The notes beneath the pieces were generated by a model, which was not told the origin of the DNA, made no database searches, and was given only the letters and a program-made list of their open reading frames with translations. From contig NW_027437431.1 of NCBI RefSeq assembly GCF_964204645.1, forward strand, positions 1-64,000: DNA of 64,000 nt, read 5' to 3'. This stretch comes from Tubulanus polymorphus. Lineage: Eukaryota; Animalia; Nemertea. The position numbers and the translations under genes were made by a program. Shown here piece after piece: positions 37,321 to 56,994 of this stretch; position 1 is the stretch's first letter, and each line of letters opens with the position of its first letter.

Positions 37321-37328
37321 AAATGACT

Positions 37329-38389
37329 TGTGTGAAGTCAATGTATATGTTATATGTAAAGTTATTTGTTTGTATAAAGTGTAACGGTAGTTGGTCGTTC
37401 TTTTGTTCGTTCTCTTGTCAGTATTCCAGTATTCGGTAGTATTGTGTTGTATTGTTGTTGTTGTCTGGTATTGTTATTTTCCCGCCTCAAAGTTTATTGG
37501 CATATCCGTTTCCGGGTTACTCCCGCATTTTGTGTAATATTTTTGGCACTTGGTCGTTCGAGCTCCTCGGAGTATCAGTGCTTGTCTGTGTGCTTGCTAT
37601 ATTGGAATCTCCCTCAGTCGTCATGTAAGTTTTGTGCAAATTTATATTAATTAATTATTGTAACTGTTTACAACATTTCCTACCCTTATAATATTTGTTT
37701 TTGTAGAAACGTGTAATATTCGTCGTTTGTTTTTTGTCGTCGTAATTTGAAAATAAACGCATCAATGAGAAGTATCGACTGACTTCGTTTGTCATCTGCA
37801 ACACTGTTTATGACGAGGGAGATGGCATCACTTGACGAGAAGGTTAAATCGAGAGCGGGTTTCAAGGCCAACGTCACAAAAAGAAGCAACATCCTTCGGA
37901 AGGCGTTAAAAGAAGGGCTACCGTATGATGATGTAAAGAAATTAATCGACGACGTTACACAATCGTGGGAAAAGTTCGAAAACGCGCACGACGCCGTTCA
38001 TTGTCTGTATATCGAAGATGATGACATTGAAAATTCATATATGTATTTCGATCGGGAAGAGAAAAAGTATCGCGAGTTGCTAGAAAAGGCAACCAAAGTT
38101 CAAAGTCCTGTGGTTTCGGATTCCGTAGCTGCGTCAACAGGTAATAGTGATAGTGATCTTGCTGCGATGGTAAAAAGTCTAAAACGAATGGCTTTACCAC
38201 AACAAGAAGTGCCAATTTTCGGCCATGATCCTATTGAATATTGCTATTTCGTAAAAGCTTTTGAAAATATAATCGAAAGTAAAACCGATTGCAGTAGCCA
38301 AAGGCTGTATTATCTAATGCAATATACGCGCGGTGAGGTGAAAGAGTTAGTGCGAAGCTGCATGGAGCAACCACCAGACATCGGGTACT
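37329..38389 (+). mobile_element. BEL/Pao LTR retrotransposon 5' part (putative LTR plus gag), cut by the viral array
   Basis: Abrupt change from DIRS sequence to a TG-initiated T-rich segment with AATAAA (about 37751), followed by gag. LTR boundaries are approximate. Confidence 0.6.
37810..38389 (+). pseudogene. BEL/Pao gag (DUF1759-like), truncated
   Basis: LPQQEVPIFGHDPIEYCYFVKAFENIIE...QRLYYLMQYTRGEVKELVRSC...GY. The frame is intact up to the junction and then stops in viral sequence at 38424. Confidence 0.8.
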
Positions 38390-38659
38390 CACAGCCCGTG
38401 GTGGTCTGTGACAGTGGAGGTTAGTTAAAGTTCGAGGCGTGTGACTAGTCGGGGGGAATAACATAGGCGGCTACGCCGCGATAGTTAGTCGGCAAGGTCG
38501 GCTGCGCCTCCGGCGGTACAGATTACATCTGAGTGTATTAGTCTACCAACGGAAGCCCAAACCCTAAATAATATTAGTCGGAAAAATCTGAGTTAGAGGG
38601 TCGCAACCGGTTCAAACAATTTAACATCTCATACAGGTGACTCGTACTTTTAGTATCAA

Positions 38660-39742
38660 ATGCCATCGTTGAAACGGAGGCGAAACGGATTTACATTGCC
38701 CGGTTTACCACATTGCGGTCCATTCAACGATATATCCAGTTACAAAAGCGAAGGAATAGACGAAGTGTGCCGTATTCACGACAAAGAGTACGGAGAACTG
38801 CAAGAGAAATACGGTAAATGGGCTCCGTACTTCCAGTACAATTCAGCGGATCAGACATTTTTGGACAGTGCTTCGGGTGTGAACGGTGTAGGTGCGAGAC
38901 TAACGTCGAGTGTATTCAGAGCAAAACGGGCGTTATTTCCAACAATGGCGGAAGAACCGGCATTAAAAAGATCAAAGAGAACGGCGGAAACGGGGAGCGA
39001 AGAAGGGAACGCCCAACAAATGATGACTCACATGACGGAAAAGCCGTCACTACACTATAAGAGCGTGTTAATACATAGAGGTTACCTAACGTTTACGAAT
39101 TGGGATCCGGACCAGGCGTACGGAGCATTCGGAAGAAAAGCGAAGATTTACTGTTCGGGAATGAGAACGTTTAACTTCGGATTAAAAGAAAGAGAAGGAT
39201 GGAGAAGATTTCCAGCCAGCATGGATACCATAGGGATGTGGGATCAATTCAAAGTGACTTCGGGTAAAATAACGTTATACCCCATAGCGAGCGAAAGCGC
39301 GGTAAGCTCTGATTCGAACGCGTTCCAAGATCCGATAGTATGGTTAAAGACGGCAGCCGATTGGGACTTGAAAGTGAAAGACTCGGCCGCCAATACTCAC
39401 CAGGGATCGCCGTACGCCGATATAAATTTATTAACTCAAAAGCAAAGCTACAGGCAATACGAATTAGGTCGGGGATGCGTTAGCATGGGATTACCCATGT
39501 CGACCATAAGAACCGAAATACAAGACACGAGTGACCCGACAGACGTTACCAGATCGGTGAATATCGGGGATAACTCGGCGTGGTTAGACGGAGCGTACCG
39601 CGATCATTGGCAATCAGCCGCGCTCATTATGCAAATGTTAGTGTACAACGATTCGATACACGCGGATTTAAACACGCCCCATACAGAAATTATCGTTCCA
39701 GCGGAAGTGGAGTTTACGATGATTCATAGAAACAGAGTATAA
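38660..39742 (+). CDS. Putative capsid protein with N-terminal parvovirus VP1u-type phospholipase A2 (copy 1)
   Basis: GFTLPGLPHCGPFN (Ca-loop), DEVCRIHDKEY (HDxxY) and PYFQYNSADQTFL. Basic NLS-like runs KRRR and KRSKR. WDQFKVTSGKITLYP resembles a CRESS jelly-roll strand motif. Confidence 0.8.
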   Translation: MPSLKRRRNGFTLPGLPHCGPFNDISSYKSEGIDEVCRIHDKEYGELQEKYGKWAPYFQYNSADQTFLDSASGVNGVGARLTSSVFRAKRALFPTMAEEPALKRSKRTAETGSEEGNAQQMMTHMTEKPSLHYKSVLIHRGYLTFTNWDPDQAYGAFGRKAKIYCSGMRTFNFGLKEREGWRRFPASMDTIGMWDQFKVTSGKITLYPIASESAVSSDSNAFQDPIVWLKTAADWDLKVKDSAANTHQGSPYADINLLTQKQSYRQYELGRGCVSMGLPMSTIRTEIQDTSDPTDVTRSVNIGDNSAWLDGAYRDHWQSAALIMQMLVYNDSIHADLNTPHTEIIVPAEVEFTMIHRNRV

Positions 39743-39743
39743 T

Positions 39744-40052
39744 ATGATAATAACTTTCCTATTCTTGGCATCCGGTTTCCTACACGAGTACAAGTGGCAC
39801 GTATATACTAAACGTATCATGAGTAGAACGCAACGATTCATGAAAATAAGAGACGAAGTGGCGAACGAGTGGGTCATCAAACACGACGTCAACGAAAATC
39901 GGGTACTAAGGGAACAACACATTACAGAAGTAGCGAAAAGGATATTCTACTACCGGGAAAAACAATGGGAACTAAGTCGAGAAACTGGTCGTTCACAACC
40001 GACAATCGAGCAGAAGTCTGCCTCGAAAGTCAAATCGGAACGTCAACAGTAA
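39744..40052 (+). CDS. Small accessory ORF with a hydrophobic N-terminus, overlapping the Rep start (copy 1; present in all 8 copies)
   Basis: ATG lies 1 nt after the capsid stop (TAA-T-ATG). Starts MIITFLFLASGFL, then a charged helical-looking tail. Confidence 0.5.
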   Translation: MIITFLFLASGFLHEYKWHVYTKRIMSRTQRFMKIRDEVANEWVIKHDVNENRVLREQHITEVAKRIFYYREKQWELSRETGRSQPTIEQKSASKVKSERQQ

Positions 40053-41368
40053 CCGTACACATAGGTCCGCAAGAAGATCCGGACGGTTACGCGCACGGAG
40101 TAATAATAACGTTAGCCAAAGGTACGCAACGACCGTTGAAACAGAGCGAAAACGCGATTAGACAACTGTTACACTCGCTAGGCATTAGATTAGTTAACGA
40201 CTACATCAAACCGACGGAAAAATTAGGCGCCTACATTCAATACATGTACAAAGAAGCCGACAAAATACCGGAAGAATTACGAGGTCACTTGGAGGTGAAA
40301 AACTCGAAAACGAACGACGACTTTTTCGGCCAAAAGATAAACGCGTTATACGCGGAATACCAACAAAGACCGGGACTAGCCGATTGGACGGCGAGAATAG
40401 TGAAGGAGTTCGGTTACAACGTACCCGAACTGAAAGTGAAAAGATCGTTTAAAAATTGGCCGGTAAGGGTAAAAGATATTACGAGAAACGCGGGTGACTT
40501 TGCGTTGAAAATGACGGACATAACAGAGCCGAAATTGACGCCGGAAATGGGAGTAGAAATTATAACGAAATGCCTGGATAACGTTCAATCGGCGATGTGG
40601 GATGGTAAACATATAAATAAACGTGACCTGCTGGTAATATTGGTGAACGCGGCGATCGAGGGAGGTACGAGTAAAATCAGAAACGCGCCTCATATAATAT
40701 TTTACGGAGATGCCGGGTCTGGTAAATCGATGTTGGCTAAATTATTGTTCCCGGATTCGATTACGAGCCAAATGCCGACGGATTCGGAAGGCGTAGGAGC
40801 GTGCGAGATGGGAGGAGGACAACGTATATTCAAAGTCGACGACGCCAGCGACGCTTTTTGGCACAACTCGGGGTTGTTGTCGATGATACTCGCGATGTAC
40901 CAGTCCACCTGGGAGGCAAAAGTACATTCTAGTAAACAAAGTAACCCGCCGTGTATGACGGTAATTACGACGAATTGTAAGAATCCGTTAGAGAAGTTCG
41001 CCTCTACAGTAGCTTTGGAAGCTGTGGAAAGGAGATTCTTGTCGGTGTATTTCAAAGGTAAAGCAGATTTGGGAAACGTAGTTTACGACATTACGCCGGG
41101 CGTATGCGAAGAAATATTAGAAATAATAGTTAACGAAATTAGACAAGGTAGATATCTGGACAACCAAGTCCACTTGGACGACTGGGAAACGGATGATGAC
41201 GTGGTGATACCGTTCGAAAAAGAAAGAAACTTCATCGAAGCGTACCACGTAGGTCACATGTCGGACGCGATGCATCAGAATATGGAGGAAAGGTTAAAAC
41301 GTAAACGTAAAGAAGAAGACGATACGAATGAAACTCTTAAGTTCGCTAAACGCGGGGAAATCCTGTAG
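39965..41368 (+). CDS. rep: Replication initiator Rep: HUH endonuclease plus SF3 helicase (copy 1)
   Basis: Motif I RNWSFTTDN, motif II-like GYAHGVI, motif III YMYKE. Walker A GDAGSGKS, Walker B FKVDD, motif C VITTN, Arg finger AVERRF. The first ATG (acaATGg) is at 39965; the track start at 39869 is GTG. Confidence 0.85.
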   Translation: MGTKSRNWSFTTDNRAEVCLESQIGTSTVTVHIGPQEDPDGYAHGVIITLAKGTQRPLKQSENAIRQLLHSLGIRLVNDYIKPTEKLGAYIQYMYKEADKIPEELRGHLEVKNSKTNDDFFGQKINALYAEYQQRPGLADWTARIVKEFGYNVPELKVKRSFKNWPVRVKDITRNAGDFALKMTDITEPKLTPEMGVEIITKCLDNVQSAMWDGKHINKRDLLVILVNAAIEGGTSKIRNAPHIIFYGDAGSGKSMLAKLLFPDSITSQMPTDSEGVGACEMGGGQRIFKVDDASDAFWHNSGLLSMILAMYQSTWEAKVHSSKQSNPPCMTVITTNCKNPLEKFASTVALEAVERRFLSVYFKGKADLGNVVYDITPGVCEEILEIIVNEIRQGRYLDNQVHLDDWETDDDVVIPFEKERNFIEAYHVGHMSDAMHQNMEERLKRKRKEEDDTNETLKFAKRGEIL

Positions 41369-41379
41369 TTGGCAATGTA

Positions 41380-41385
41380 AATAAA
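41380..41385 (+). terminator. Polyadenylation signal after Rep (repeated every 3406 bp)
   Basis: AATAAA 11 nt after the Rep stop codon. Confidence 0.55.
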
Positions 41386-41425
41386 TCTATAAATAGAATT
41401 CTATAAATTTCTCAATTCGTTACTA

Positions 41426-41539
41426 CCAGTGGACCCGCAGACCCGCGGACCCACTGGCTGTTCGTTTTTCATGGTCTACCCCCCCTTATATATATAATAA
41501 GGAAAGAGAAGGAGGGTCCGCGGGTCCGCGGGTCTGCGG
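41426..41539. promoter_or_regulatory. Candidate origin/promoter: inverted 8-bp iterons flanking an AT-rich hairpin
   Basis: GGACCCGC-AGACCCGC-GGACCC, then CCTTAT[ATATATA]ATAAGG, then GGGTCCGC-GGGTCCGC-GGGTCTGC. 41435-41452 is the exact reverse complement of 41522-41539. Confidence 0.6.
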
Positions 41540-41620
41540 TATTCTCTAAACCGAGAATCGAAAAGTTAATGAAACTAGGTCGGAAAGATAACAAATTATT
41601 ATTCAATATATCCTAAAGCT

Positions 41621-41676
41621 TCTACGAGGTTGGTCACGCGCTCGCTACGCTCGCCAGCGTGACACAACCTCGTGGA
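41621..41676. promoter_or_regulatory. Long stem-loop in the viral intergenic region
   Basis: TCTACGAGGTTG-GTCACGC pairs with GCGTGAC-A-CAACCTCGTGGA (about 19 bp). Loop GCTCGCTACGCTCGCCA. Confidence 0.6.
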
Positions 41677-42065
41677 CGCTCCAAAGATAATGAGTATGTG
41701 CTTGATAATGAGTGAATTAATTGGGAACCCTATAGCGGGTAAAAGGTAAGAAGTAGAAATTATAGGGTTAGGGGTTATCATTATACTCGGATGCCCACAG
41801 CCCGTGGTGGTCTGTGACAGTGGAGGTTAGTTAAAGTTCGAGGCGTGTGACTAGTCGGGGGGAATAACATAGGCGGCTACGCCGCGATAGTTAGTCGGCA
41901 AGGTCGGCTGCGCCTCCGGCGGTACAGATTACATCTGAGTGTATTAGTCTACCAACGGAAGCCCAAACCCTAAATAATATTAGTCGGAAAAATCTGAGTT
42001 AGAGGGTCGCAACCGGTTCAAACAATTTAACATCTCATACAGGTGACTCGTACTTTTAGTATCAA

Positions 42066-43148
42066 ATGCCATCGTTGAAACGGAGGCGAAACGGATTTAC
42101 ATTGCCCGGTTTACCACATTGCGGTCCATTCAACGATATATCCAGTTACAAAAGCGAAGGAATAGACGAAGTGTGCCGTATTCACGACAAAGAGTACGGA
42201 GAACTGCAAGAGAAATACGGTAAATGGGCTCCGTACTTCCAGTACAATTCAGCGGATCAGACATTTTTGGACAGTGCTTCGGGTGTGAACGGTGTAGGTG
42301 CGAGACTAACGTCGAGTGTATTCAGAGCAAAACGGGCGTTATTTCCAACAATGGCGGAAGAACCGGCATTAAAAAGATCAAAGAGAACGGCGGAAACGGG
42401 GAGCGAAGAAGGGAACGCCCAACAAATGATGACTCACATGACGGAAAAGCCGTCACTACACTATAAGAGCGTGTTAATACATAGAGGTTACCTAACGTTT
42501 ACGAATTGGGATCCGGACCAGGCGTACGGAGCATTCGGAAGAAAAGCGAAGATTTACTGTTCGGGAATGAGAACGTTTAACTTCGGATTAAAAGAAAGAG
42601 AAGGATGGAGAAGATTTCCAGCCAGCATGGATACCATAGGGATGTGGGATCAATTCAAAGTGACTTCGGGTAAAATAACGTTATACCCCATAGCGAGCGA
42701 AAGCGCGGTAAGCTCTGATTCGAACGCGTTCCAAGATCCGATAGTATGGTTAAAGACGGCAGCCGATTGGGACTTGAAAGTGAAAGACTCGGCCGCCAAT
42801 ACTCACCAGGGATCGCCGTACGCCGATATAAATTTATTAACTCAAAAGCAAAGCTACAGGCAATACGAATTAGGTCGGGGATGCGTTAGCATGGGATTAC
42901 CCATGTCGACCATAAGAACCGAAATACAAGACACGAGTGACCCGACAGACGTTACCAGATCGGTGAATATCGGGGATAACTCGGCGTGGTTAGACGGAGC
43001 GTACCGCGATCATTGGCAATCAGCCGCGCTCATTATGCAAATGTTAGTGTACAACGATTCGATACACGCGGATTTAAACACGCCCCATACAGAAATTATC
43101 GTTCCAGCGGAAGTGGAGTTTACGATGATTCATAGAAACAGAGTATAA
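42066..43148 (+). CDS. PLA2-capsid, copy 2
   Basis: Translation identical to copy 1. Confidence 0.8.
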   Translation: MPSLKRRRNGFTLPGLPHCGPFNDISSYKSEGIDEVCRIHDKEYGELQEKYGKWAPYFQYNSADQTFLDSASGVNGVGARLTSSVFRAKRALFPTMAEEPALKRSKRTAETGSEEGNAQQMMTHMTEKPSLHYKSVLIHRGYLTFTNWDPDQAYGAFGRKAKIYCSGMRTFNFGLKEREGWRRFPASMDTIGMWDQFKVTSGKITLYPIASESAVSSDSNAFQDPIVWLKTAADWDLKVKDSAANTHQGSPYADINLLTQKQSYRQYELGRGCVSMGLPMSTIRTEIQDTSDPTDVTRSVNIGDNSAWLDGAYRDHWQSAALIMQMLVYNDSIHADLNTPHTEIIVPAEVEFTMIHRNRV

Positions 43149-43370
43149 TATGATAATAACTTTCCTATTCTTGGCATCCGGTTTCCTACACGAGTACAAG
43201 TGGCACGTATATACTAAACGTATCATGAGTAGAACGCAACGATTCATGAAAATAAGAGACGAAGTGGCGAACGAGTGGGTCATCAAACACGACGTCAACG
43301 AAAATCGGGTACTAAGGGAACAACACATTACAGAAGTAGCGAAAAGGATATTCTACTACCGGGAAAAACA

Positions 43371-44774
43371 ATGGGAACTAAGTCGAGAAACTGGTCGTTC
43401 ACAACCGACAATCGAGCAGAAGTCTGCCTCGAAAGTCAAATCGGAACGTCAACAGTAACCGTACACATAGGTCCGCAAGAAGATCCGGACGGTTACGCGC
43501 ACGGAGTAATAATAACGTTAGCCAAAGGTACGCAACGACCGTTGAAACAGAGCGAAAACGCGATTAGACAACTGTTACACTCGCTAGGCATTAGATTAGT
43601 TAACGACTACATCAAACCGACGGAAAAATTAGGCGCCTACATTCAATACATGTACAAAGAAGCCGACAAAATACCGGAAGAATTACGAGGTCACTTGGAG
43701 GTGAAAAACTCGAAAACGAACGACGACTTTTTCGGCCAAAAGATAAACGCGTTATACGCGGAATACCAACAAAGACCGGGACTAGCCGATTGGACGGCGA
43801 GAATAGTGAAGGAGTTCGGTTACAACGTACCCGAACTGAAAGTGAAAAGATCGTTTAAAAATTGGCCGGTAAGGGTAAAAGATATTACGAGAAACGCGGG
43901 TGACTTTGCGTTGAAAATGACGGACATAACAGAGCCGAAATTGACGCCGGAAATGGGAGTAGAAATTATAACGAAATGCCTGGATAACGTTCAATCGGCG
44001 ATGTGGGATGGTAAACATATAAATAAACGTGACCTGCTGGTAATATTGGTGAACGCGGCGATCGAGGGAGGTACGAGTAAAATCAGAAACGCGCCTCATA
44101 TAATATTTTACGGAGATGCCGGGTCTGGTAAATCGATGTTGGCTAAATTATTGTTCCCGGATTCGATTACGAGCCAAATGCCGACGGATTCGGAAGGCGT
44201 AGGAGCGTGCGAGATGGGAGGAGGACAACGTATATTCAAAGTCGACGACGCCAGCGACGCTTTTTGGCACAACTCGGGGTTGTTGTCGATGATACTCGCG
44301 ATGTACCAGTCCACCTGGGAGGCAAAAGTACATTCTAGTAAACAAAGTAACCCGCCGTGTATGACGGTAATTACGACGAATTGTAAGAATCCGTTAGAGA
44401 AGTTCGCCTCTACAGTAGCTTTGGAAGCTGTGGAAAGGAGATTCTTGTCGGTGTATTTCAAAGGTAAAGCAGATTTGGGAAACGTAGTTTACGACATTAC
44501 GCCGGGCGTATGCGAAGAAATATTAGAAATAATAGTTAACGAAATTAGACAAGGTAGATATCTGGACAACCAAGTCCACTTGGACGACTGGGAAACGGAT
44601 GATGACGTGGTGATACCGTTCGAAAAAGAAAGAAACTTCATCGAAGCGTACCACGTAGGTCACATGTCGGACGCGATGCATCAGAATATGGAGGAAAGGT
44701 TAAAACGTAAACGTAAAGAAGAAGACGATACGAATGAAACTCTTAAGTTCGCTAAACGCGGGGAAATCCTGTAG
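43371..44774 (+). CDS. rep: Rep (HUH + SF3 helicase), copy 2
   Basis: Translation identical to copy 1. Confidence 0.85.
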   Translation: MGTKSRNWSFTTDNRAEVCLESQIGTSTVTVHIGPQEDPDGYAHGVIITLAKGTQRPLKQSENAIRQLLHSLGIRLVNDYIKPTEKLGAYIQYMYKEADKIPEELRGHLEVKNSKTNDDFFGQKINALYAEYQQRPGLADWTARIVKEFGYNVPELKVKRSFKNWPVRVKDITRNAGDFALKMTDITEPKLTPEMGVEIITKCLDNVQSAMWDGKHINKRDLLVILVNAAIEGGTSKIRNAPHIIFYGDAGSGKSMLAKLLFPDSITSQMPTDSEGVGACEMGGGQRIFKVDDASDAFWHNSGLLSMILAMYQSTWEAKVHSSKQSNPPCMTVITTNCKNPLEKFASTVALEAVERRFLSVYFKGKADLGNVVYDITPGVCEEILEIIVNEIRQGRYLDNQVHLDDWETDDDVVIPFEKERNFIEAYHVGHMSDAMHQNMEERLKRKRKEEDDTNETLKFAKRGEIL

Positions 44775-45471
44775 TTGGCAATGTAAATAAATCTATAAAT
44801 AGAATTCTATAAATTTCTCAATTCGTTACTACCAGTGGACCCGCAGACCCGCGGACCCACTGGCTGTTCGTTTTTCATGGTCTACCCCCCCTTATATATA
44901 TAATAAGGAAAGAGAAGGAGGGTCCGCGGGTCCGCGGGTCTGCGGTATTCTCTAAACCGAGAATCGAAAAGTTAATGAAACTAGGTCGGAAAGATAACAA
45001 ATTATTATTCAATATATCCTAAAGCTTCTACGAGGTTGGTCACGCGCTCGCTACGCTCGCCAGCGTGACACAACCTCGTGGACGCTCCAAAGATAATGAG
45101 TATGTGCTTGATAATGAGTGAATTAATTGGGAACCCTATAGCGGGTAAAAGGTAAGAAGTAGAAATTATAGGGTTAGGGGTTATCATTATACTCGGATGC
45201 CCACAGCCCGTGGTGGTCTGTGACAGTGGAGGTTAGTTAAAGTTCGAGGCGTGTGACTAGTCGGGGGGAATAACATAGGCGGCTACGCCGCGATAGTTAG
45301 TCGGCAAGGTCGGCTGCGCCTCCGGCGGTACAGATTACATCTGAGTGTATTAGTCTACCAACGGAAGCCCAAACCCTAAATAATATTAGTCGGAAAAATC
45401 TGAGTTAGAGGGTCGCAACCGGTTCAAACAATTTAACATCTCATACAGGTGACTCGTACTTTTAGTATCAA

Positions 45472-46554
45472 ATGCCATCGTTGAAACGGAGGCGAAACGG
45501 ATTTACATTGCCCGGTTTACCACATTGCGGTCCATTCAACGATATATCCAGTTACAAAAGCGAAGGAATAGACGAAGTGTGCCGTATTCACGACAAAGAG
45601 TACGGAGAACTGCAAGAGAAATACGGTAAATGGGCTCCGTACTTCCAGTACAATTCAGCGGATCAGACATTTTTGGACAGTGCTTCGGGTGTGAACGGTG
45701 TAGGTGCGAGACTAACGTCGAGTGTATTCAGAGCAAAACGGGCGTTATTTCCAACAATGGCGGAAGAACCGGCATTAAAAAGATCAAAGAGAACGGCGGA
45801 AACGGGGAGCGAAGAAGGGAACGCCCAACAAATGATGACTCACATGACGGAAAAGCCGTCACTACACTATAAGAGCGTGTTAATACATAGAGGTTACCTA
45901 ACGTTTACGAATTGGGATCCGGACCAGGCGTACGGAGCATTCGGAAGAAAAGCGAAGATTTACTGTTCGGGAATGAGAACGTTTAACTTCGGATTAAAAG
46001 AAAGAGAAGGATGGAGAAGATTTCCAGCCAGCATGGATACCATAGGGATGTGGGATCAATTCAAAGTGACTTCGGGTAAAATAACGTTATACCCCATAGC
46101 GAGCGAAAGCGCGGTAAGCTCTGATTCGAACGCGTTCCAAGATCCGATAGTATGGTTAAAGACGGCAGCCGATTGGGACTTGAAAGTGAAAGACTCGGCC
46201 GCCAATACTCACCAGGGATCGCCGTACGCCGATATAAATTTATTAACTCAAAAGCAAAGCTACAGGCAATACGAATTAGGTCGGGGATGCGTTAGCATGG
46301 GATTACCCATGTCGACCATAAGAACCGAAATACAAGACACGAGTGACCCGACAGACGTTACCAGATCGGTGAATATCGGGGATAACTCGGCGTGGTTAGA
46401 CGGAGCGTACCGCGATCATTGGCAATCAGCCGCGCTCATTATGCAAATGTTAGTGTACAACGATTCGATACACGCGGATTTAAACACGCCCCATACAGAA
46501 ATTATCGTTCCAGCGGAAGTGGAGTTTACGATGATTCATAGAAACAGAGTATAA
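45472..46554 (+). CDS. PLA2-capsid, copy 3
   Basis: Translation identical to copy 1. Confidence 0.8.
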   Translation: MPSLKRRRNGFTLPGLPHCGPFNDISSYKSEGIDEVCRIHDKEYGELQEKYGKWAPYFQYNSADQTFLDSASGVNGVGARLTSSVFRAKRALFPTMAEEPALKRSKRTAETGSEEGNAQQMMTHMTEKPSLHYKSVLIHRGYLTFTNWDPDQAYGAFGRKAKIYCSGMRTFNFGLKEREGWRRFPASMDTIGMWDQFKVTSGKITLYPIASESAVSSDSNAFQDPIVWLKTAADWDLKVKDSAANTHQGSPYADINLLTQKQSYRQYELGRGCVSMGLPMSTIRTEIQDTSDPTDVTRSVNIGDNSAWLDGAYRDHWQSAALIMQMLVYNDSIHADLNTPHTEIIVPAEVEFTMIHRNRV

Positions 46555-46776
46555 TATGATAATAACTTTCCTATTCTTGGCATCCGGTTTCCTACACGAG
46601 TACAAGTGGCACGTATATACTAAACGTATCATGAGTAGAACGCAACGATTCATGAAAATAAGAGACGAAGTGGCGAACGAGTGGGTCATCAAACACGACG
46701 TCAACGAAAATCGGGTACTAAGGGAACAACACATTACAGAAGTAGCGAAAAGGATATTCTACTACCGGGAAAAACA

Positions 46777-48180
46777 ATGGGAACTAAGTCGAGAAACTGG
46801 TCGTTCACAACCGACAATCGAGCAGAAGTCTGCCTCGAAAGTCAAATCGGAACGTCAACAGTAACCGTACACATAGGTCCGCAAGAAGATCCGGACGGTT
46901 ACGCGCACGGAGTAATAATAACGTTAGCCAAAGGTACGCAACGACCGTTGAAACAGAGCGAAAACGCGATTAGACAACTGTTACACTCGCTAGGCATTAG
47001 ATTAGTTAACGACTACATCAAACCGACGGAAAAATTAGGCGCCTACATTCAATACATGTACAAAGAAGCCGACAAAATACCGGAAGAATTACGAGGTCAC
47101 TTGGAGGTGAAAAACTCGAAAACGAACGACGACTTTTTCGGCCAAAAGATAAACGCGTTATACGCGGAATACCAACAAAGACCGGGACTAGCCGATTGGA
47201 CGGCGAGAATAGTGAAGGAGTTCGGTTACAACGTACCCGAACTGAAAGTGAAAAGATCGTTTAAAAATTGGCCGGTAAGGGTAAAAGATATTACGAGAAA
47301 CGCGGGTGACTTTGCGTTGAAAATGACGGACATAACAGAGCCGAAATTGACGCCGGAAATGGGAGTAGAAATTATAACGAAATGCCTGGATAACGTTCAA
47401 TCGGCGATGTGGGATGGTAAACATATAAATAAACGTGACCTGCTGGTAATATTGGTGAACGCGGCGATCGAGGGAGGTACGAGTAAAATCAGAAACGCGC
47501 CTCATATAATATTTTACGGAGATGCCGGGTCTGGTAAATCGATGTTGGCTAAATTATTGTTCCCGGATTCGATTACGAGCCAAATGCCGACGGATTCGGA
47601 AGGCGTAGGAGCGTGCGAGATGGGAGGAGGACAACGTATATTCAAAGTCGACGACGCCAGCGACGCTTTTTGGCACAACTCGGGGTTGTTGTCGATGATA
47701 CTCGCGATGTACCAGTCCACCTGGGAGGCAAAAGTACATTCTAGTAAACAAAGTAACCCGCCGTGTATGACGGTAATTACGACGAATTGTAAGAATCCGT
47801 TAGAGAAGTTCGCCTCTACAGTAGCTTTGGAAGCTGTGGAAAGGAGATTCTTGTCGGTGTATTTCAAAGGTAAAGCAGATTTGGGAAACGTAGTTTACGA
47901 CATTACGCCGGGCGTATGCGAAGAAATATTAGAAATAATAGTTAACGAAATTAGACAAGGTAGATATCTGGACAACCAAGTCCACTTGGACGACTGGGAA
48001 ACGGATGATGACGTGGTGATACCGTTCGAAAAAGAAAGAAACTTCATCGAAGCGTACCACGTAGGTCACATGTCGGACGCGATGCATCAGAATATGGAGG
48101 AAAGGTTAAAACGTAAACGTAAAGAAGAAGACGATACGAATGAAACTCTTAAGTTCGCTAAACGCGGGGAAATCCTGTAG
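46777..48180 (+). CDS. rep: Rep (HUH + SF3 helicase), copy 3
   Basis: Translation identical to copy 1. Confidence 0.85.
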   Translation: MGTKSRNWSFTTDNRAEVCLESQIGTSTVTVHIGPQEDPDGYAHGVIITLAKGTQRPLKQSENAIRQLLHSLGIRLVNDYIKPTEKLGAYIQYMYKEADKIPEELRGHLEVKNSKTNDDFFGQKINALYAEYQQRPGLADWTARIVKEFGYNVPELKVKRSFKNWPVRVKDITRNAGDFALKMTDITEPKLTPEMGVEIITKCLDNVQSAMWDGKHINKRDLLVILVNAAIEGGTSKIRNAPHIIFYGDAGSGKSMLAKLLFPDSITSQMPTDSEGVGACEMGGGQRIFKVDDASDAFWHNSGLLSMILAMYQSTWEAKVHSSKQSNPPCMTVITTNCKNPLEKFASTVALEAVERRFLSVYFKGKADLGNVVYDITPGVCEEILEIIVNEIRQGRYLDNQVHLDDWETDDDVVIPFEKERNFIEAYHVGHMSDAMHQNMEERLKRKRKEEDDTNETLKFAKRGEIL

Positions 48181-48877
48181 TTGGCAATGTAAATAAATCT
48201 ATAAATAGAATTCTATAAATTTCTCAATTCGTTACTACCAGTGGACCCGCAGACCCGCGGACCCACTGGCTGTTCGTTTTTCATGGTCTACCCCCCCTTA
48301 TATATATAATAAGGAAAGAGAAGGAGGGTCCGCGGGTCCGCGGGTCTGCGGTATTCTCTAAACCGAGAATCGAAAAGTTAATGAAACTAGGTCGGAAAGA
48401 TAACAAATTATTATTCAATATATCCTAAAGCTTCTACGAGGTTGGTCACGCGCTCGCTACGCTCGCCAGCGTGACACAACCTCGTGGACGCTCCAAAGAT
48501 AATGAGTATGTGCTTGATAATGAGTGAATTAATTGGGAACCCTATAGCGGGTAAAAGGTAAGAAGTAGAAATTATAGGGTTAGGGGTTATCATTATACTC
48601 GGATGCCCACAGCCCGTGGTGGTCTGTGACAGTGGAGGTTAGTTAAAGTTCGAGGCGTGTGACTAGTCGGGGGGAATAACATAGGCGGCTACGCCGCGAT
48701 AGTTAGTCGGCAAGGTCGGCTGCGCCTCCGGCGGTACAGATTACATCTGAGTGTATTAGTCTACCAACGGAAGCCCAAACCCTAAATAATATTAGTCGGA
48801 AAAATCTGAGTTAGAGGGTCGCAACCGGTTCAAACAATTTAACATCTCATACAGGTGACTCGTACTTTTAGTATCAA

Positions 48878-49960
48878 ATGCCATCGTTGAAACGGAGGCG
48901 AAACGGATTTACATTGCCCGGTTTACCACATTGCGGTCCATTCAACGATATATCCAGTTACAAAAGCGAAGGAATAGACGAAGTGTGCCGTATTCACGAC
49001 AAAGAGTACGGAGAACTGCAAGAGAAATACGGTAAATGGGCTCCGTACTTCCAGTACAATTCAGCGGATCAGACATTTTTGGACAGTGCTTCGGGTGTGA
49101 ACGGTGTAGGTGCGAGACTAACGTCGAGTGTATTCAGAGCAAAACGGGCGTTATTTCCAACAATGGCGGAAGAACCGGCATTAAAAAGATCAAAGAGAAC
49201 GGCGGAAACGGGGAGCGAAGAAGGGAACGCCCAACAAATGATGACTCACATGACGGAAAAGCCGTCACTACACTATAAGAGCGTGTTAATACATAGAGGT
49301 TACCTAACGTTTACGAATTGGGATCCGGACCAGGCGTACGGAGCATTCGGAAGAAAAGCGAAGATTTACTGTTCGGGAATGAGAACGTTTAACTTCGGAT
49401 TAAAAGAAAGAGAAGGATGGAGAAGATTTCCAGCCAGCATGGATACCATAGGGATGTGGGATCAATTCAAAGTGACTTCGGGTAAAATAACGTTATACCC
49501 CATAGCGAGCGAAAGCGCGGTAAGCTCTGATTCGAACGCGTTCCAAGATCCGATAGTATGGTTAAAGACGGCAGCCGATTGGGACTTGAAAGTGAAAGAC
49601 TCGGCCGCCAATACTCACCAGGGATCGCCGTACGCCGATATAAATTTATTAACTCAAAAGCAAAGCTACAGGCAATACGAATTAGGTCGGGGATGCGTTA
49701 GCATGGGATTACCCATGTCGACCATAAGAACCGAAATACAAGACACGAGTGACCCGACAGACGTTACCAGATCGGTGAATATCGGGGATAACTCGGCGTG
49801 GTTAGACGGAGCGTACCGCGATCATTGGCAATCAGCCGCGCTCATTATGCAAATGTTAGTGTACAACGATTCGATACACGCGGATTTAAACACGCCCCAT
49901 ACAGAAATTATCGTTCCAGCGGAAGTGGAGTTTACGATGATTCATAGAAACAGAGTATAA
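48878..49960 (+). CDS. PLA2-capsid, copy 4
   Basis: Translation identical to copy 1. Confidence 0.8.
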   Translation: MPSLKRRRNGFTLPGLPHCGPFNDISSYKSEGIDEVCRIHDKEYGELQEKYGKWAPYFQYNSADQTFLDSASGVNGVGARLTSSVFRAKRALFPTMAEEPALKRSKRTAETGSEEGNAQQMMTHMTEKPSLHYKSVLIHRGYLTFTNWDPDQAYGAFGRKAKIYCSGMRTFNFGLKEREGWRRFPASMDTIGMWDQFKVTSGKITLYPIASESAVSSDSNAFQDPIVWLKTAADWDLKVKDSAANTHQGSPYADINLLTQKQSYRQYELGRGCVSMGLPMSTIRTEIQDTSDPTDVTRSVNIGDNSAWLDGAYRDHWQSAALIMQMLVYNDSIHADLNTPHTEIIVPAEVEFTMIHRNRV

Positions 49961-50182
49961 TATGATAATAACTTTCCTATTCTTGGCATCCGGTTTCCTA
50001 CACGAGTACAAGTGGCACGTATATACTAAACGTATCATGAGTAGAACGCAACGATTCATGAAAATAAGAGACGAAGTGGCGAACGAGTGGGTCATCAAAC
50101 ACGACGTCAACGAAAATCGGGTACTAAGGGAACAACACATTACAGAAGTAGCGAAAAGGATATTCTACTACCGGGAAAAACA

Positions 50183-51586
50183 ATGGGAACTAAGTCGAGA
50201 AACTGGTCGTTCACAACCGACAATCGAGCAGAAGTCTGCCTCGAAAGTCAAATCGGAACGTCAACAGTAACCGTACACATAGGTCCGCAAGAAGATCCGG
50301 ACGGTTACGCGCACGGAGTAATAATAACGTTAGCCAAAGGTACGCAACGACCGTTGAAACAGAGCGAAAACGCGATTAGACAACTGTTACACTCGCTAGG
50401 CATTAGATTAGTTAACGACTACATCAAACCGACGGAAAAATTAGGCGCCTACATTCAATACATGTACAAAGAAGCCGACAAAATACCGGAAGAATTACGA
50501 GGTCACTTGGAGGTGAAAAACTCGAAAACGAACGACGACTTTTTCGGCCAAAAGATAAACGCGTTATACGCGGAATACCAACAAAGACCGGGACTAGCCG
50601 ATTGGACGGCGAGAATAGTGAAGGAGTTCGGTTACAACGTACCCGAACTGAAAGTGAAAAGATCGTTTAAAAATTGGCCGGTAAGGGTAAAAGATATTAC
50701 GAGAAACGCGGGTGACTTTGCGTTGAAAATGACGGACATAACAGAGCCGAAATTGACGCCGGAAATGGGAGTAGAAATTATAACGAAATGCCTGGATAAC
50801 GTTCAATCGGCGATGTGGGATGGTAAACATATAAATAAACGTGACCTGCTGGTAATATTGGTGAACGCGGCGATCGAGGGAGGTACGAGTAAAATCAGAA
50901 ACGCGCCTCATATAATATTTTACGGAGATGCCGGGTCTGGTAAATCGATGTTGGCTAAATTATTGTTCCCGGATTCGATTACGAGCCAAATGCCGACGGA
51001 TTCGGAAGGCGTAGGAGCGTGCGAGATGGGAGGAGGACAACGTATATTCAAAGTCGACGACGCCAGCGACGCTTTTTGGCACAACTCGGGGTTGTTGTCG
51101 ATGATACTCGCGATGTACCAGTCCACCTGGGAGGCAAAAGTACATTCTAGTAAACAAAGTAACCCGCCGTGTATGACGGTAATTACGACGAATTGTAAGA
51201 ATCCGTTAGAGAAGTTCGCCTCTACAGTAGCTTTGGAAGCTGTGGAAAGGAGATTCTTGTCGGTGTATTTCAAAGGTAAAGCAGATTTGGGAAACGTAGT
51301 TTACGACATTACGCCGGGCGTATGCGAAGAAATATTAGAAATAATAGTTAACGAAATTAGACAAGGTAGATATCTGGACAACCAAGTCCACTTGGACGAC
51401 TGGGAAACGGATGATGACGTGGTGATACCGTTCGAAAAAGAAAGAAACTTCATCGAAGCGTACCACGTAGGTCACATGTCGGACGCGATGCATCAGAATA
51501 TGGAGGAAAGGTTAAAACGTAAACGTAAAGAAGAAGACGATACGAATGAAACTCTTAAGTTCGCTAAACGCGGGGAAATCCTGTAG
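50183..51586 (+). CDS. rep: Rep (HUH + SF3 helicase), copy 4
   Basis: Translation identical to copy 1. Confidence 0.85.
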   Translation: MGTKSRNWSFTTDNRAEVCLESQIGTSTVTVHIGPQEDPDGYAHGVIITLAKGTQRPLKQSENAIRQLLHSLGIRLVNDYIKPTEKLGAYIQYMYKEADKIPEELRGHLEVKNSKTNDDFFGQKINALYAEYQQRPGLADWTARIVKEFGYNVPELKVKRSFKNWPVRVKDITRNAGDFALKMTDITEPKLTPEMGVEIITKCLDNVQSAMWDGKHINKRDLLVILVNAAIEGGTSKIRNAPHIIFYGDAGSGKSMLAKLLFPDSITSQMPTDSEGVGACEMGGGQRIFKVDDASDAFWHNSGLLSMILAMYQSTWEAKVHSSKQSNPPCMTVITTNCKNPLEKFASTVALEAVERRFLSVYFKGKADLGNVVYDITPGVCEEILEIIVNEIRQGRYLDNQVHLDDWETDDDVVIPFEKERNFIEAYHVGHMSDAMHQNMEERLKRKRKEEDDTNETLKFAKRGEIL

Positions 51587-52283
51587 TTGGCAATGTAAAT
51601 AAATCTATAAATAGAATTCTATAAATTTCTCAATTCGTTACTACCAGTGGACCCGCAGACCCGCGGACCCACTGGCTGTTCGTTTTTCATGGTCTACCCC
51701 CCCTTATATATATAATAAGGAAAGAGAAGGAGGGTCCGCGGGTCCGCGGGTCTGCGGTATTCTCTAAACCGAGAATCGAAAAGTTAATGAAACTAGGTCG
51801 GAAAGATAACAAATTATTATTCAATATATCCTAAAGCTTCTACGAGGTTGGTCACGCGCTCGCTACGCTCGCCAGCGTGACACAACCTCGTGGACGCTCC
51901 AAAGATAATGAGTATGTGCTTGATAATGAGTGAATTAATTGGGAACCCTATAGCGGGTAAAAGGTAAGAAGTAGAAATTATAGGGTTAGGGGTTATCATT
52001 ATACTCGGATGCCCACAGCCCGTGGTGGTCTGTGACAGTGGAGGTTAGTTAAAGTTCGAGGCGTGTGACTAGTCGGGGGGAATAACATAGGCGGCTACGC
52101 CGCGATAGTTAGTCGGCAAGGTCGGCTGCGCCTCCGGCGGTACAGATTACATCTGAGTGTATTAGTCTACCAACGGAAGCCCAAACCCTAAATAATATTA
52201 GTCGGAAAAATCTGAGTTAGAGGGTCGCAACCGGTTCAAACAATTTAACATCTCATACAGGTGACTCGTACTTTTAGTATCAA

Positions 52284-53366
52284 ATGCCATCGTTGAAACG
52301 GAGGCGAAACGGATTTACATTGCCCGGTTTACCACATTGCGGTCCATTCAACGATATATCCAGTTACAAAAGCGAAGGAATAGACGAAGTGTGCCGTATT
52401 CACGACAAAGAGTACGGAGAACTGCAAGAGAAATACGGTAAATGGGCTCCGTACTTCCAGTACAATTCAGCGGATCAGACATTTTTGGACAGTGCTTCGG
52501 GTGTGAACGGTGTAGGTGCGAGACTAACGTCGAGTGTATTCAGAGCAAAACGGGCGTTATTTCCAACAATGGCGGAAGAACCGGCATTAAAAAGATCAAA
52601 GAGAACGGCGGAAACGGGGAGCGAAGAAGGGAACGCCCAACAAATGATGACTCACATGACGGAAAAGCCGTCACTACACTATAAGAGCGTGTTAATACAT
52701 AGAGGTTACCTAACGTTTACGAATTGGGATCCGGACCAGGCGTACGGAGCATTCGGAAGAAAAGCGAAGATTTACTGTTCGGGAATGAGAACGTTTAACT
52801 TCGGATTAAAAGAAAGAGAAGGATGGAGAAGATTTCCAGCCAGCATGGATACCATAGGGATGTGGGATCAATTCAAAGTGACTTCGGGTAAAATAACGTT
52901 ATACCCCATAGCGAGCGAAAGCGCGGTAAGCTCTGATTCGAACGCGTTCCAAGATCCGATAGTATGGTTAAAGACGGCAGCCGATTGGGACTTGAAAGTG
53001 AAAGACTCGGCCGCCAATACTCACCAGGGATCGCCGTACGCCGATATAAATTTATTAACTCAAAAGCAAAGCTACAGGCAATACGAATTAGGTCGGGGAT
53101 GCGTTAGCATGGGATTACCCATGTCGACCATAAGAACCGAAATACAAGACACGAGTGACCCGACAGACGTTACCAGATCGGTGAATATCGGGGATAACTC
53201 GGCGTGGTTAGACGGAGCGTACCGCGATCATTGGCAATCAGCCGCGCTCATTATGCAAATGTTAGTGTACAACGATTCGATACACGCGGATTTAAACACG
53301 CCCCATACAGAAATTATCGTTCCAGCGGAAGTGGAGTTTACGATGATTCATAGAAACAGAGTATAA
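52284..53366 (+). CDS. PLA2-capsid, copy 5
   Basis: Translation identical to copy 1. Confidence 0.8.
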   Translation: MPSLKRRRNGFTLPGLPHCGPFNDISSYKSEGIDEVCRIHDKEYGELQEKYGKWAPYFQYNSADQTFLDSASGVNGVGARLTSSVFRAKRALFPTMAEEPALKRSKRTAETGSEEGNAQQMMTHMTEKPSLHYKSVLIHRGYLTFTNWDPDQAYGAFGRKAKIYCSGMRTFNFGLKEREGWRRFPASMDTIGMWDQFKVTSGKITLYPIASESAVSSDSNAFQDPIVWLKTAADWDLKVKDSAANTHQGSPYADINLLTQKQSYRQYELGRGCVSMGLPMSTIRTEIQDTSDPTDVTRSVNIGDNSAWLDGAYRDHWQSAALIMQMLVYNDSIHADLNTPHTEIIVPAEVEFTMIHRNRV

Positions 53367-53588
53367 TATGATAATAACTTTCCTATTCTTGGCATCCGGT
53401 TTCCTACACGAGTACAAGTGGCACGTATATACTAAACGTATCATGAGTAGAACGCAACGATTCATGAAAATAAGAGACGAAGTGGCGAACGAGTGGGTCA
53501 TCAAACACGACGTCAACGAAAATCGGGTACTAAGGGAACAACACATTACAGAAGTAGCGAAAAGGATATTCTACTACCGGGAAAAACA

Positions 53589-54992
53589 ATGGGAACTAAG
53601 TCGAGAAACTGGTCGTTCACAACCGACAATCGAGCAGAAGTCTGCCTCGAAAGTCAAATCGGAACGTCAACAGTAACCGTACACATAGGTCCGCAAGAAG
53701 ATCCGGACGGTTACGCGCACGGAGTAATAATAACGTTAGCCAAAGGTACGCAACGACCGTTGAAACAGAGCGAAAACGCGATTAGACAACTGTTACACTC
53801 GCTAGGCATTAGATTAGTTAACGACTACATCAAACCGACGGAAAAATTAGGCGCCTACATTCAATACATGTACAAAGAAGCCGACAAAATACCGGAAGAA
53901 TTACGAGGTCACTTGGAGGTGAAAAACTCGAAAACGAACGACGACTTTTTCGGCCAAAAGATAAACGCGTTATACGCGGAATACCAACAAAGACCGGGAC
54001 TAGCCGATTGGACGGCGAGAATAGTGAAGGAGTTCGGTTACAACGTACCCGAACTGAAAGTGAAAAGATCGTTTAAAAATTGGCCGGTAAGGGTAAAAGA
54101 TATTACGAGAAACGCGGGTGACTTTGCGTTGAAAATGACGGACATAACAGAGCCGAAATTGACGCCGGAAATGGGAGTAGAAATTATAACGAAATGCCTG
54201 GATAACGTTCAATCGGCGATGTGGGATGGTAAACATATAAATAAACGTGACCTGCTGGTAATATTGGTGAACGCGGCGATCGAGGGAGGTACGAGTAAAA
54301 TCAGAAACGCGCCTCATATAATATTTTACGGAGATGCCGGGTCTGGTAAATCGATGTTGGCTAAATTATTGTTCCCGGATTCGATTACGAGCCAAATGCC
54401 GACGGATTCGGAAGGCGTAGGAGCGTGCGAGATGGGAGGAGGACAACGTATATTCAAAGTCGACGACGCCAGCGACGCTTTTTGGCACAACTCGGGGTTG
54501 TTGTCGATGATACTCGCGATGTACCAGTCCACCTGGGAGGCAAAAGTACATTCTAGTAAACAAAGTAACCCGCCGTGTATGACGGTAATTACGACGAATT
54601 GTAAGAATCCGTTAGAGAAGTTCGCCTCTACAGTAGCTTTGGAAGCTGTGGAAAGGAGATTCTTGTCGGTGTATTTCAAAGGTAAAGCAGATTTGGGAAA
54701 CGTAGTTTACGACATTACGCCGGGCGTATGCGAAGAAATATTAGAAATAATAGTTAACGAAATTAGACAAGGTAGATATCTGGACAACCAAGTCCACTTG
54801 GACGACTGGGAAACGGATGATGACGTGGTGATACCGTTCGAAAAAGAAAGAAACTTCATCGAAGCGTACCACGTAGGTCACATGTCGGACGCGATGCATC
54901 AGAATATGGAGGAAAGGTTAAAACGTAAACGTAAAGAAGAAGACGATACGAATGAAACTCTTAAGTTCGCTAAACGCGGGGAAATCCTGTAG
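53589..54992 (+). CDS. rep: Rep (HUH + SF3 helicase), copy 5
   Basis: Translation identical to copy 1. Confidence 0.85.
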   Translation: MGTKSRNWSFTTDNRAEVCLESQIGTSTVTVHIGPQEDPDGYAHGVIITLAKGTQRPLKQSENAIRQLLHSLGIRLVNDYIKPTEKLGAYIQYMYKEADKIPEELRGHLEVKNSKTNDDFFGQKINALYAEYQQRPGLADWTARIVKEFGYNVPELKVKRSFKNWPVRVKDITRNAGDFALKMTDITEPKLTPEMGVEIITKCLDNVQSAMWDGKHINKRDLLVILVNAAIEGGTSKIRNAPHIIFYGDAGSGKSMLAKLLFPDSITSQMPTDSEGVGACEMGGGQRIFKVDDASDAFWHNSGLLSMILAMYQSTWEAKVHSSKQSNPPCMTVITTNCKNPLEKFASTVALEAVERRFLSVYFKGKADLGNVVYDITPGVCEEILEIIVNEIRQGRYLDNQVHLDDWETDDDVVIPFEKERNFIEAYHVGHMSDAMHQNMEERLKRKRKEEDDTNETLKFAKRGEIL

Positions 54993-56772: not shown

Positions 56773-56994
56773 TATGATAATAACTTTCCTATTCTTGGCA
56801 TCCGGTTTCCTACACGAGTACAAGTGGCACGTATATACTAAACGTATCATGAGTAGAACGCAACGATTCATGAAAATAAGAGACGAAGTGGCGAACGAGT
56901 GGGTCATCAAACACGACGTCAACGAAAATCGGGTACTAAGGGAACAACACATTACAGAAGTAGCGAAAAGGATATTCTACTACCGGGAAAAACA

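What the first reader, a model, noticed from the sequence alone, without database searches (positions are those of the whole stretch)
38660..39742. Chimeric capsid: parvovirus VP1u-type PLA2 fused to a short CRESS-like capsid body
Seen: residues ~10-68 (GFTLPGLPHCGPFN...IDEVCRIHDKEY...PYFQYNSADQTFL) are colinear with the parvoviral PLA2 signature (AAV2-type GLVLPGYKYLGPFN...DAAALEHDKAY...PYLKYNHAD). The catalytic His-Asp and the downstream Asp are retained, and the Ca-loop Tyr is replaced by His. The rest of the protein is only ~265 aa, much shorter than typical parvovirus major capsid proteins, and WDQFKVTSGKITLYP resembles the F/Y-D-x-Y-R/K-I-x-x-V-K-V-x-F-x-P strand of circovirus-like capsids. 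Inference: a CRESS-like virus has acquired the parvoviral endosome-escape module. Circo/parvo hybrids have been described (e.g. parvo-like hybrid virus NIH-CQV/PHV) without a clearly established host, so a chromosomal copy would tie this design to an animal host. The capsid assignment of the C-terminal part is my inference.
Basis: partly seen in the sequence, partly recalled or inferred. Interest (0 to 1): 0.85.

Follow-up and report, generated by a model that had tools for sequence, protein, structure and literature searches.

The report
PLA2-tipped capsid of unclassified circular virus
An animal genome assembly holds at least seven and a half near-identical head-to-tail copies of a 3.4-kb virus-like unit whose likely capsid carries a parvovirus-type membrane-cutting enzyme domain at its tip but sits beside a replication protein more like that of circular ssDNA viruses; the pairing is already known from one virus family thought to infect non-animal hosts, and this looks like a second, unclassified, probably animal-infecting lineage.

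Summary
The PLA2 is real (Pfam PF08398, E 2e-11; VP1 hits only over residues 1-116). The ORF lies in a 3,406-bp unit (cap, small ORF, Rep; two strong hairpins) repeated 7.5 times with one SNP, starting inside a Bel/Pao-like gag. The Rep (motif I, YxxK, SF3 helicase with Arg finger) fits CRESS profiles better than parvoviral ones and forms its own clade. The CRESS assignment of the 265-aa body is not shown: folds failed (pLDDT 33-34) and profile tests were negative but insensitive. One relative shares the body under a non-PLA2 head, so head and body are separable modules. Nine metagenome loci share the PLA2; six also carry the related Rep after the cap gene. PLA2-capsid plus CRESS Rep is already known in Oomyviridae (NIH-CQV/PHV; linear, likely stramenopile hosts), so the design is not new; this lineage is distinct from Oomyviridae-like comparators in Rep, body and gene order. 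The unit closes on itself in read contigs, a second family occurs in another sample of the species, but the host junction was not independently seen. Verdict: new variant, likely a new animal-associated lineage.

The parts
38660..39742 (+). Likely capsid gene, 360 aa (VP1-like): PLA2 head, basic/Gly-Ser linker, beta-rich body; first of 8 copies
38687..38926 (+). PLA2 domain (aa 10-89): HCGPFN loop at 38711, His-Asp at 38777, YNSAD at 38837
   Evidence: Pfam PF08398 E 2.4e-11
38945..39742 (+). Predicted shorter form from Met96 (265 aa, 30 kDa) without PLA2; Met1 has a weak and Met96 a strong start context
   Evidence: inference of leaky scanning
39744..40052 (+). Small ORF overlapping the Rep start (102 aa; a second Met at 39819 behind a TATATA at 39802); function unknown
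   Evidence: loose ends of the second family show an ATG in this region
39965..41368 (+). Rep, 467 aa: NWSFTTDN (motif I), YAHGV (motif II, Tyr for first His), YMYKE (motif III), SF3 helicase GDAGSGKS / FKVDDA / VITTN / ERRF
41432..41534 (.). GC-rich hairpin with repeated arms, enclosing a TATATA
   Evidence: z -6.5
41617..41680 (.). Long hairpin whose loop holds GCTCGCTACGCTCG; candidate origin element
   Evidence: z -5.9; origin role inferred
38390..41795 (+). One 3,406-bp unit; closes on itself in read contigs
   Evidence: joint 41790 to 38390 in X1 and X2
38390..64000 (+). Head-to-tail array, 7.5 copies to the window end, one SNP (55538)
37810..38391 (+). Interrupted ORF resembling a Bel/Pao gag start (resemblance recalled, no Pfam hit); 2-nt overlap (CA) with the unit at 38390-38391; putative LTR about 37380-37803 (TGT...ACA)

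Best explanation
The gene likely encodes the capsid of an unclassified circular Rep-encoding ssDNA virus of animals: a parvovirus-type PLA2 domain is fused to a short, predicted jelly-roll body, and the PLA2 would cut the endosome membrane during entry. Weak Met1 and strong Met96 contexts would give a minor PLA2-bearing VP1 and a major PLA2-less VP2 by leaky scanning, as in parvoviruses (inferred). The Rep would nick and copy the circle by rolling-circle replication, and a multimeric product likely became joined to host DNA inside an LTR retrotransposon gag, giving the array (inferred). Shown: PLA2 match, unit, array, Rep motifs, relatives. Inferred: jelly roll, capsid role, enzyme activity, two starts, ssDNA form, integration route.
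For: PLA2. Unit closes on itself in X1 and X2; 7.5 copies, one SNP. Rep helicase vs CRESS profile E 3.6e-12 over 111 columns including the Arg finger, vs parvoviral NS1 9.4e-6, reversed controls 0.25-0.65; N-terminal domain aligns motifs I and II with CRESS Rep (P 0.0095) and only off-target with NS1. In the helicase tree parvoviruses plus densoviruses are one side of a 98-supported branch without this Rep (quick tree). Body: one homolog among 1.84 billion representatives, P0001, 28% identity, E 1.7e-11, with a non-PLA2 N-terminus. Low-confidence model is almost all strands with long first and last strands. 9 of 23 motif-scan loci share the PLA2 (E about 1e-24 to 1e-26), 6 of these 9 also the Rep (E 1.6e-50 to 1.3e-34 among 818 ORFs), cap before rep on one strand; their bodies score above shuffles against the window+P0001 profile (0, 0 and 4 of 2000); 8 of 9 keep an in-frame Met just behind the PLA2; L142 and L125 run from the rep end through non-coding DNA into the cap start. 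Positive control: Oomyviridae-like bodies L199 and L140 do hit a CRESS capsid profile (E 1.5e-6, 9.3e-6). Host tie: a second family, about 80-85% alike, lies at depth about 450 in X1 and covers most of cap in X6, a different sample and study that lacks the exact unit; deleted relatives show at depth 81, like single-copy flank at 80.
Against: The body matched no CRESS capsid profile (E 6.1; P 0.33-0.82; best of 128 clusters P 0.027 against 0.045 for the reversed control) and no PDB sequence. No canonical nonanucleotide in a stem-loop among 17 motif-like sites. Motif II has Tyr for the first His. The tree cannot reject this Rep as sister to parvoviruses (p-AU 0.40) or to Oomyviridae-like Reps (0.70), and Hamaparvovirinae were not sampled. 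No long basic arm (7 R/K in the first 45 aa). No contig bridging 38390 was listed, X1 depth bins leave no room for one, and three window letters in the gag are not seen in X1, X3 or X6. The reciprocal body test is weak (5 of 2000 for the window, 258 of 2000 for P0001; global HMM-HMM no better than shuffles).
Confidence: 0.6

Rival explanations
1. Same virus, but the chromosomal array is an assembly product: an episomal circle or its concatemers, of the animal or of a symbiont, joined to a host contig by a chimeric read.
For: No bridging contig listed; the unit is one uninterrupted circle in X1. Copies are near-identical over 25.6 kb. Unit-to-flank depth is about 25 in X1 (1980/80) and about 40 in X2 (332/8), rough figures only. 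Three gag letters of the window are not seen in X1, X3 or X6.
Against: Contigs drop rare branches, so a missing bridge is no proof (tool note). Deleted relatives at flank-like depth in X1, also seen in X2 and X6, and a second family in another study's sample point to long residence in this species. Related loci are frameshifted, rearranged and two run into non-viral flanks. Long tandem CRESS integrations are on record in Giardia (PMC7493932, passage).
Confidence: 0.3
2. It is a very divergent parvovirus (hamaparvovirus-like small VP plus PLA2) whose genome was concatemerised, with the hairpins being its termini.
For: VP1u-type PLA2 with a Met behind it, Gly-rich linkers in the relatives, long hairpins; sister position to parvoviruses not rejected (p-AU 0.40); apparently circular parvovirus-like genomes are reported (PMC11071296, passage).
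Against: Rep carries a motif I-like segment and an Arg-finger-like ERRF and fits CRESS better; it lies outside the 98-supported parvovirus+densovirus branch; no Parvo_NS1 Pfam hit in 4 of 4 family members; cap lies upstream of rep; all copies keep one hairpin orientation; body does not match VP profiles (P 0.41 and 0.23).
Confidence: 0.15
3. The protein is not a capsid but a membrane-active accessory protein (like adintovirus PLA2X) of a plasmid-like rolling-circle element.
For: The PLA2 has two Cys (CGP, VCRxHD) like PLA2X sequences seen in the supplement of PMC11071296; the fold of the body is unproven.
Against: It is the only large non-Rep ORF of the unit; the body persists under another head in P0001; it is predicted beta-rich, and the segment after His-Asp follows the VP1u pattern.
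Confidence: 0.08
4. It is a member of Oomyviridae (PHV/NIH-CQV), possibly a kit contaminant.
For: Same domain pairing; 30 columns around Walker A match Oomyviridae-like Reps (E 1e-7); PHVs are common silica-column contaminants (PMC13141889).
Against: Full Rep scores only E 0.15 against L133/L136 versus 1e-50 against its own family; bodies do not match (1163 of 2000 shuffles as good); gene order and topology differ; depth is far above host flank in two samples, with decayed relatives at flank depth.
Confidence: 0.03

Closest known systems
Oomyviridae (Lineavirales, Cressdnaviricota; parvo-like hybrid virus NIH-CQV/PHV) - PMC13426907 and PMC12451638, passages read
   Same: PLA2-containing capsid protein together with a CRESS-type Rep. 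The comparators L199, L133, L136, L140 show this build (their label is my inference from recalled architecture, not from a named record).
   Different: Linear genomes and likely stramenopile hosts there; here a unit that closes on itself, cap before rep, in an animal assembly. Rep and body are not detectably close; capsid 360 aa against 446-545 aa; PLA2s do not group together.
Parvovirinae / Densovirinae VP1u PLA2 (PMC11945456, passages)
   Same: PLA2 at the capsid N-terminus, His-Asp and downstream Asp, a predicted second start behind the domain.
   Different: PLA2 branches apart with the relatives (99/93), 30-39% identical to parvoviral ones, His for Tyr and two Cys; body 265 aa without VP similarity; Rep not NS1-like.
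Circovirus-like CRESS viruses and their endogenous tandem copies (PMC7493932, passages)
   Same: Small circular unit, HUH+SF3 Rep with motif I and Arg finger, whole-genome tandem integration.
   Different: No canonical nonamer stem-loop found, no long basic arm, PLA2 head, Rep in a long separate clade.
Other phospholipases in small DNA viruses: bacilladnavirus PLA1 (PMC11903649), adintovirus PLA2X (PMC8502044), separate PLA2 ORFs of AdSDV and SwaBA-MePV-1 (PMC13426907); passages read
   Same: A phospholipase gained as a membrane-breaching module.
   Different: Separate genes or a different enzyme class, not fused to a short capsid body.

Membership tests
Parvoviral VP1u PLA2 (PF08398) | Profile match above cut-off with His-Asp and downstream Asp | tested here: met
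   44.2 bits vs 23.9; motifs
Parvoviral VP1u PLA2 (PF08398) | Ca-dependent phospholipase activity | not testable with these tools
   needs an assay
Cressdnaviricota | Rep with HUH endonuclease (motifs I-III) and SF3 helicase | tested here: met
   motifs present, motif II atypical; helicase E 3.6e-12, nuclease P 0.0095 vs CRESS profile; no Pfam Viral_Rep hit
Cressdnaviricota | Circular single-stranded genome | tested here: inconclusive
   unit closes on itself in contigs, which a tandem array also gives; strandedness untested
Cressdnaviricota | Single jelly-roll capsid | tested here: inconclusive
   pLDDT 34, strand-rich; profiles negative but only 1 of 45 presumed CRESS capsids is found by another group's profile
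Cressdnaviricota | Nonanucleotide at a stem-loop apex | tested here: inconclusive
   none of 17 motif-like sites at a stable apex; two other strong hairpins; several CRESS families deviate (recalled)
Oomyviridae | Rep belonging to the PHV clade | tested here: not met
   E 0.15 vs L133/L136; separate clades, though a sister position is not rejected; comparators unnamed
Oomyviridae | Linear genome | tested here: inconclusive
   head-to-tail closure seen; virion DNA not available
Oomyviridae | PLA2-bearing capsid | tested here: met
   body not homologous by profile
Parvoviridae | NS1 within the parvoviral SF3 clade | tested here: inconclusive
   outside the sampled Parvovirinae+Densovirinae branch (98), sister position not rejected, Hamaparvovirinae not sampled
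Parvoviridae | VP aligning end to end with a parvoviral VP | tested here: not met
   similarity only over aa 1-116; body vs VP profiles P 0.41, 0.23; 0 PDB hits for the body profile
Parvoviridae | Linear genome with terminal hairpins, NS left of VP | tested here: inconclusive
   hairpins lie between rep end and cap start, which would put cap first

The most novel reading that the evidence does not exclude
An undescribed order-level lineage of animal-infecting circular Rep-encoding viruses uses a parvovirus-style VP1/VP2 scheme with an exchangeable PLA2 head on a minimal jelly roll; it is an independent holder, and possibly near the source, of the PLA2 that parvoviruses acquired, and it enters animal germlines as intact rolling-circle arrays at LTR retrotransposons.
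Probability: 0.25. Interest if true: 0.8.

Novelty: new variant of a known kind. Interest (0 to 1): 0.58.

Why it matters
A 2026 paper treats the capsid PLA2 as a derived trait of two parvovirus subfamilies plus transfers (PMC13426907, passage); in the papers I read, the only cressdnavirus family with a PLA2-bearing capsid is Oomyviridae, assigned to stramenopiles and mostly met as kit contaminants. A second lineage, tied to an animal genome, with intact genes, a PLA2-less relative sharing the body, and a PLA2 outside the sampled parvovirus clade makes the question of where the endosome-escape module came from, and whether it works on a 30-kDa shell, directly testable. It would also add a Rep clade that word-based searches of 5.8 billion proteins did not reach.

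Full report
Observation. The ORF at 38660-39742 is real (360 aa). Residues 10-89 match the parvoviral PLA2 family PF08398 at E 2.4e-11. In the PDB, 32 of 37 rows are parvovirus or AAV capsid chains, best 9cuz at E 1.3e-12, and in all of them the best stretch ends by residue 116. The Ca-loop reads HCGPFN, the catalytic pair HD is at 40-41 and YNSAD at 60-64. So the head is a VP1u-type PLA2 and the protein does not align end to end with a parvovirus VP.

Surroundings. The gene is part of a 3,406-bp unit starting at 38390 and repeated to the window end: 7.5 copies, one SNP at 55538. The unit holds cap, a 102-aa ORF and a 467-aa Rep on one strand, and a 697-nt non-coding stretch with two hairpins far more stable than shuffles (z -6.5 and -5.9). 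None of 17 nonamer-like sites sits at a stable stem-loop apex. The array begins 580 nt into an ORF that I read as a Bel/Pao gag behind a TGT...ACA LTR (recalled resemblance; Pfam gave no hit), with a 2-nt overlap. The left part of the window holds transposon-like ORFs (read by eye; zf-Tnp_2 and NOV_C by Pfam). Earlier notes on this genome call it a ribbon worm (unchecked here).

Reads. Four runs of one study hold most of the unit. In X1 and X2 it closes on itself with no differences; depth is 1980 against 80 for single-copy flank in X1 and 332 against about 8 in X2 (the tool warns that depth is no copy number). A second family, about 80-85% alike, lies at depth about 450 in X1 and 390 in X3 and covers most of cap in X6, a sample of another study that lacks the exact unit. 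Of the 30 listed differences in cap (from 40 rows shown, 249 not shown) 16 are at third positions, no indels were listed, and the one in the HD codons is silent. Deleted relatives of the Rep region appear at depth 81 in X1, one of them also in X2 and X6, which fits old single-copy relics. Against integration at this very site: no contig bridging 38390 was listed, X1 bins leave no room for one, and three gag letters of the window are not seen in X1, X3 or X6. Contigs drop rare branches, so this stays open.

Relatives. The body has one homolog among 1.84 billion representatives: P0001, 367 aa, 28% identical, E 1.7e-11, whose first 100 residues are not a PLA2. A scan for PGxx[YH]CGPFN in metagenome contigs gave 23 loci. 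Nine share the PLA2 (54% identity for L125); six of these carry a Rep related to the window's (E 1.6e-50 to 1.3e-34; 28-29% identity), with cap, small ORF and rep in the same order. Their capsids are about 540 aa with a Gly-rich linker; several are frameshifted or rearranged, and L142 and L125 run from the rep end through non-coding DNA into the cap start. Their bodies are weakly homologous to the window's (0, 0, 4 of 2000 shuffles; reciprocal 5 and 258 of 2000; not seen by global HMM-HMM). Three other loci (L133, L136, L140), and L199, have rep then a PLA2 capsid of 446-545 aa and a different Rep; I take them as Oomyviridae-like from recalled architecture. One locus (L138) has a PLA2 in another context; the other ten were not characterised.

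Rep. It has NWSFTTDN, YAHGV, YMYKE and SF3 motifs with ERRF. Against a profile of 64 CRESS-type Reps (unnamed contigs picked by a recalled motif) the helicase scores E 3.6e-12 over 111 columns; against 52 parvoviral NS1 9.4e-6; against three Oomyviridae-like Reps 1e-7 over 30 columns; the nuclease part aligns motifs I and II with CRESS at P 0.0095. In quick trees the window and its relatives form a long clade of their own (99-100), parvoviruses and densoviruses form a 98-supported side without it, but its sister group is unresolved: p-AU 0.40 with parvoviruses, 0.70 with Oomyviridae-like.

Capsid body. AlphaFold gave pLDDT 33-34; the body model is strand-rich with long first and last strands, which fits but does not show a jelly roll. 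Profile tests were negative: best of 128 clusters P 0.027 against 0.045 reversed, E 6.1 against the CRESS group that does detect L199 and L140. The test is weak: only 1 of 45 presumed CRESS capsids is found by another group's profile, and 8 of 53 belong to none. The capsid role rests on position (only large non-Rep ORF), the PLA2 head, and the shared body under another head.

Mechanism. Met1 has a weak context and Met96 a strong one, with one out-of-frame ATG between; 8 of 9 relatives keep an in-frame Met just behind the PLA2. Leaky scanning would give a 40.6-kDa VP1 and a 30-kDa VP2 beginning with a basic patch. By analogy with parvoviruses, where VP1u is externalised in endosomes and the PLA2 allows escape (PMC11945456, passages), a few VP1 copies would breach the endosome. 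His in place of the loop Tyr likely matters little, since that residue binds calcium through its backbone (recalled). The PLA2 groups with the relatives (99/93) outside 19 parvoviral and the Oomyviridae-like sequences and has a Cys pair as in PLA2X sequences, so a parvoviral donor is not shown. The array would be a rolling-circle multimer joined to host DNA; its identity says recent, or collapsed by the assembler.

Comparison. PLA2 capsid plus circovirus-like Rep is the build of the parvo-like hybrid virus, now Oomyviridae, with linear genomes and likely stramenopile hosts (PMC13426907, PMC12451638, passages), mostly met as kit contaminants (PMC13141889, letter read). Bacilladnaviruses have a separate PLA1 (PMC11903649, passages), adintoviruses PLA2X (PMC8502044, passages); Tisza et al. 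list a PLA2 cluster among dark-matter circles without detail (PMC7000223, section 10); tandem CRESS integrations are known in Giardia (PMC7493932, passages) and cressvirus pieces beside retrotransposons in an anemone (PMC11071296, passages). PMC11323972 and PMC11097642 (passages) added nothing. Ten searches showed no paper on this lineage; unseen supplements and the ICTV proposal may bear on that.

Verdict. The chimera is real at the level of PLA2 head plus non-parvoviral body plus CRESS-like Rep, and known as a design. What is new is an unclassified lineage, apart from Oomyviridae-like comparators, with an animal tie, intact genes and a swappable head. Fold, activity and the junction remain to be shown. 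Interest 0.58.

Noticed in passing
window 38390-64000; runs X1, X3, X6: A second, 80-85% alike family of the same virus-like unit is present in the species at high depth, and deleted relics of the Rep region lie at single-copy depth: repeated invasions of one host lineage.
   Followed up: partly
L137:690-1121 (-) and L128:3821-4018: A truncated cap of the related family runs into an ORF resembling a Bel/Pao protease (recalled resemblance, no Pfam hit), and L128 shares that flank; with the window's site in a Bel/Pao-like gag this may hint at a link to these retrotransposons.
   Followed up: partly
window 41617-41680 and L142 (non-coding stretch between rep end and cap start): Both have a long stem whose loop holds a GCG(T/A)AGC mini-hairpin motif; candidate conserved origin element despite no overall DNA similarity.
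   Followed up: partly
L125, L126, L128, L129, L139, L143 (Rep C-terminal part): The relatives' Rep has a long C-terminal extension overprinted by a 240-250-aa ORF, and a 130-aa ORF overprints their PLA2; neither is present in the window's unit.
   Followed up: no
P0001: Same capsid body with an unrelated 100-aa N-terminus (no Pfam hit); only a 1.5-kb contig is on record, so its Rep is unknown.
   Followed up: partly
L138: A 161-aa ORF with a CGPFN-type PLA2 outside any small-virus context, PLA2X-like in look.
   Followed up: no
window 35900-37330: High-copy repeat (depth 40-70 times the flank in X1 and about 100 times in X6) just left of the putative LTR; by eye a DIRS-like fragment.
   Followed up: no
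window 30290-30787 (-): Exon with the NO VEIN C-terminal domain (PF13020, E 1.3e-14), a host-type gene piece in a window otherwise read as decayed LINE, Helitron and piggyBac-like remains.
   Followed up: no
window 41763-41776 and 38553-38566: Short TAGGGTTAGGGGTT / AAGCCCAAACCCTA inverted pair with telomere-like letters in the non-coding stretch; meaning unknown.
   Followed up: no
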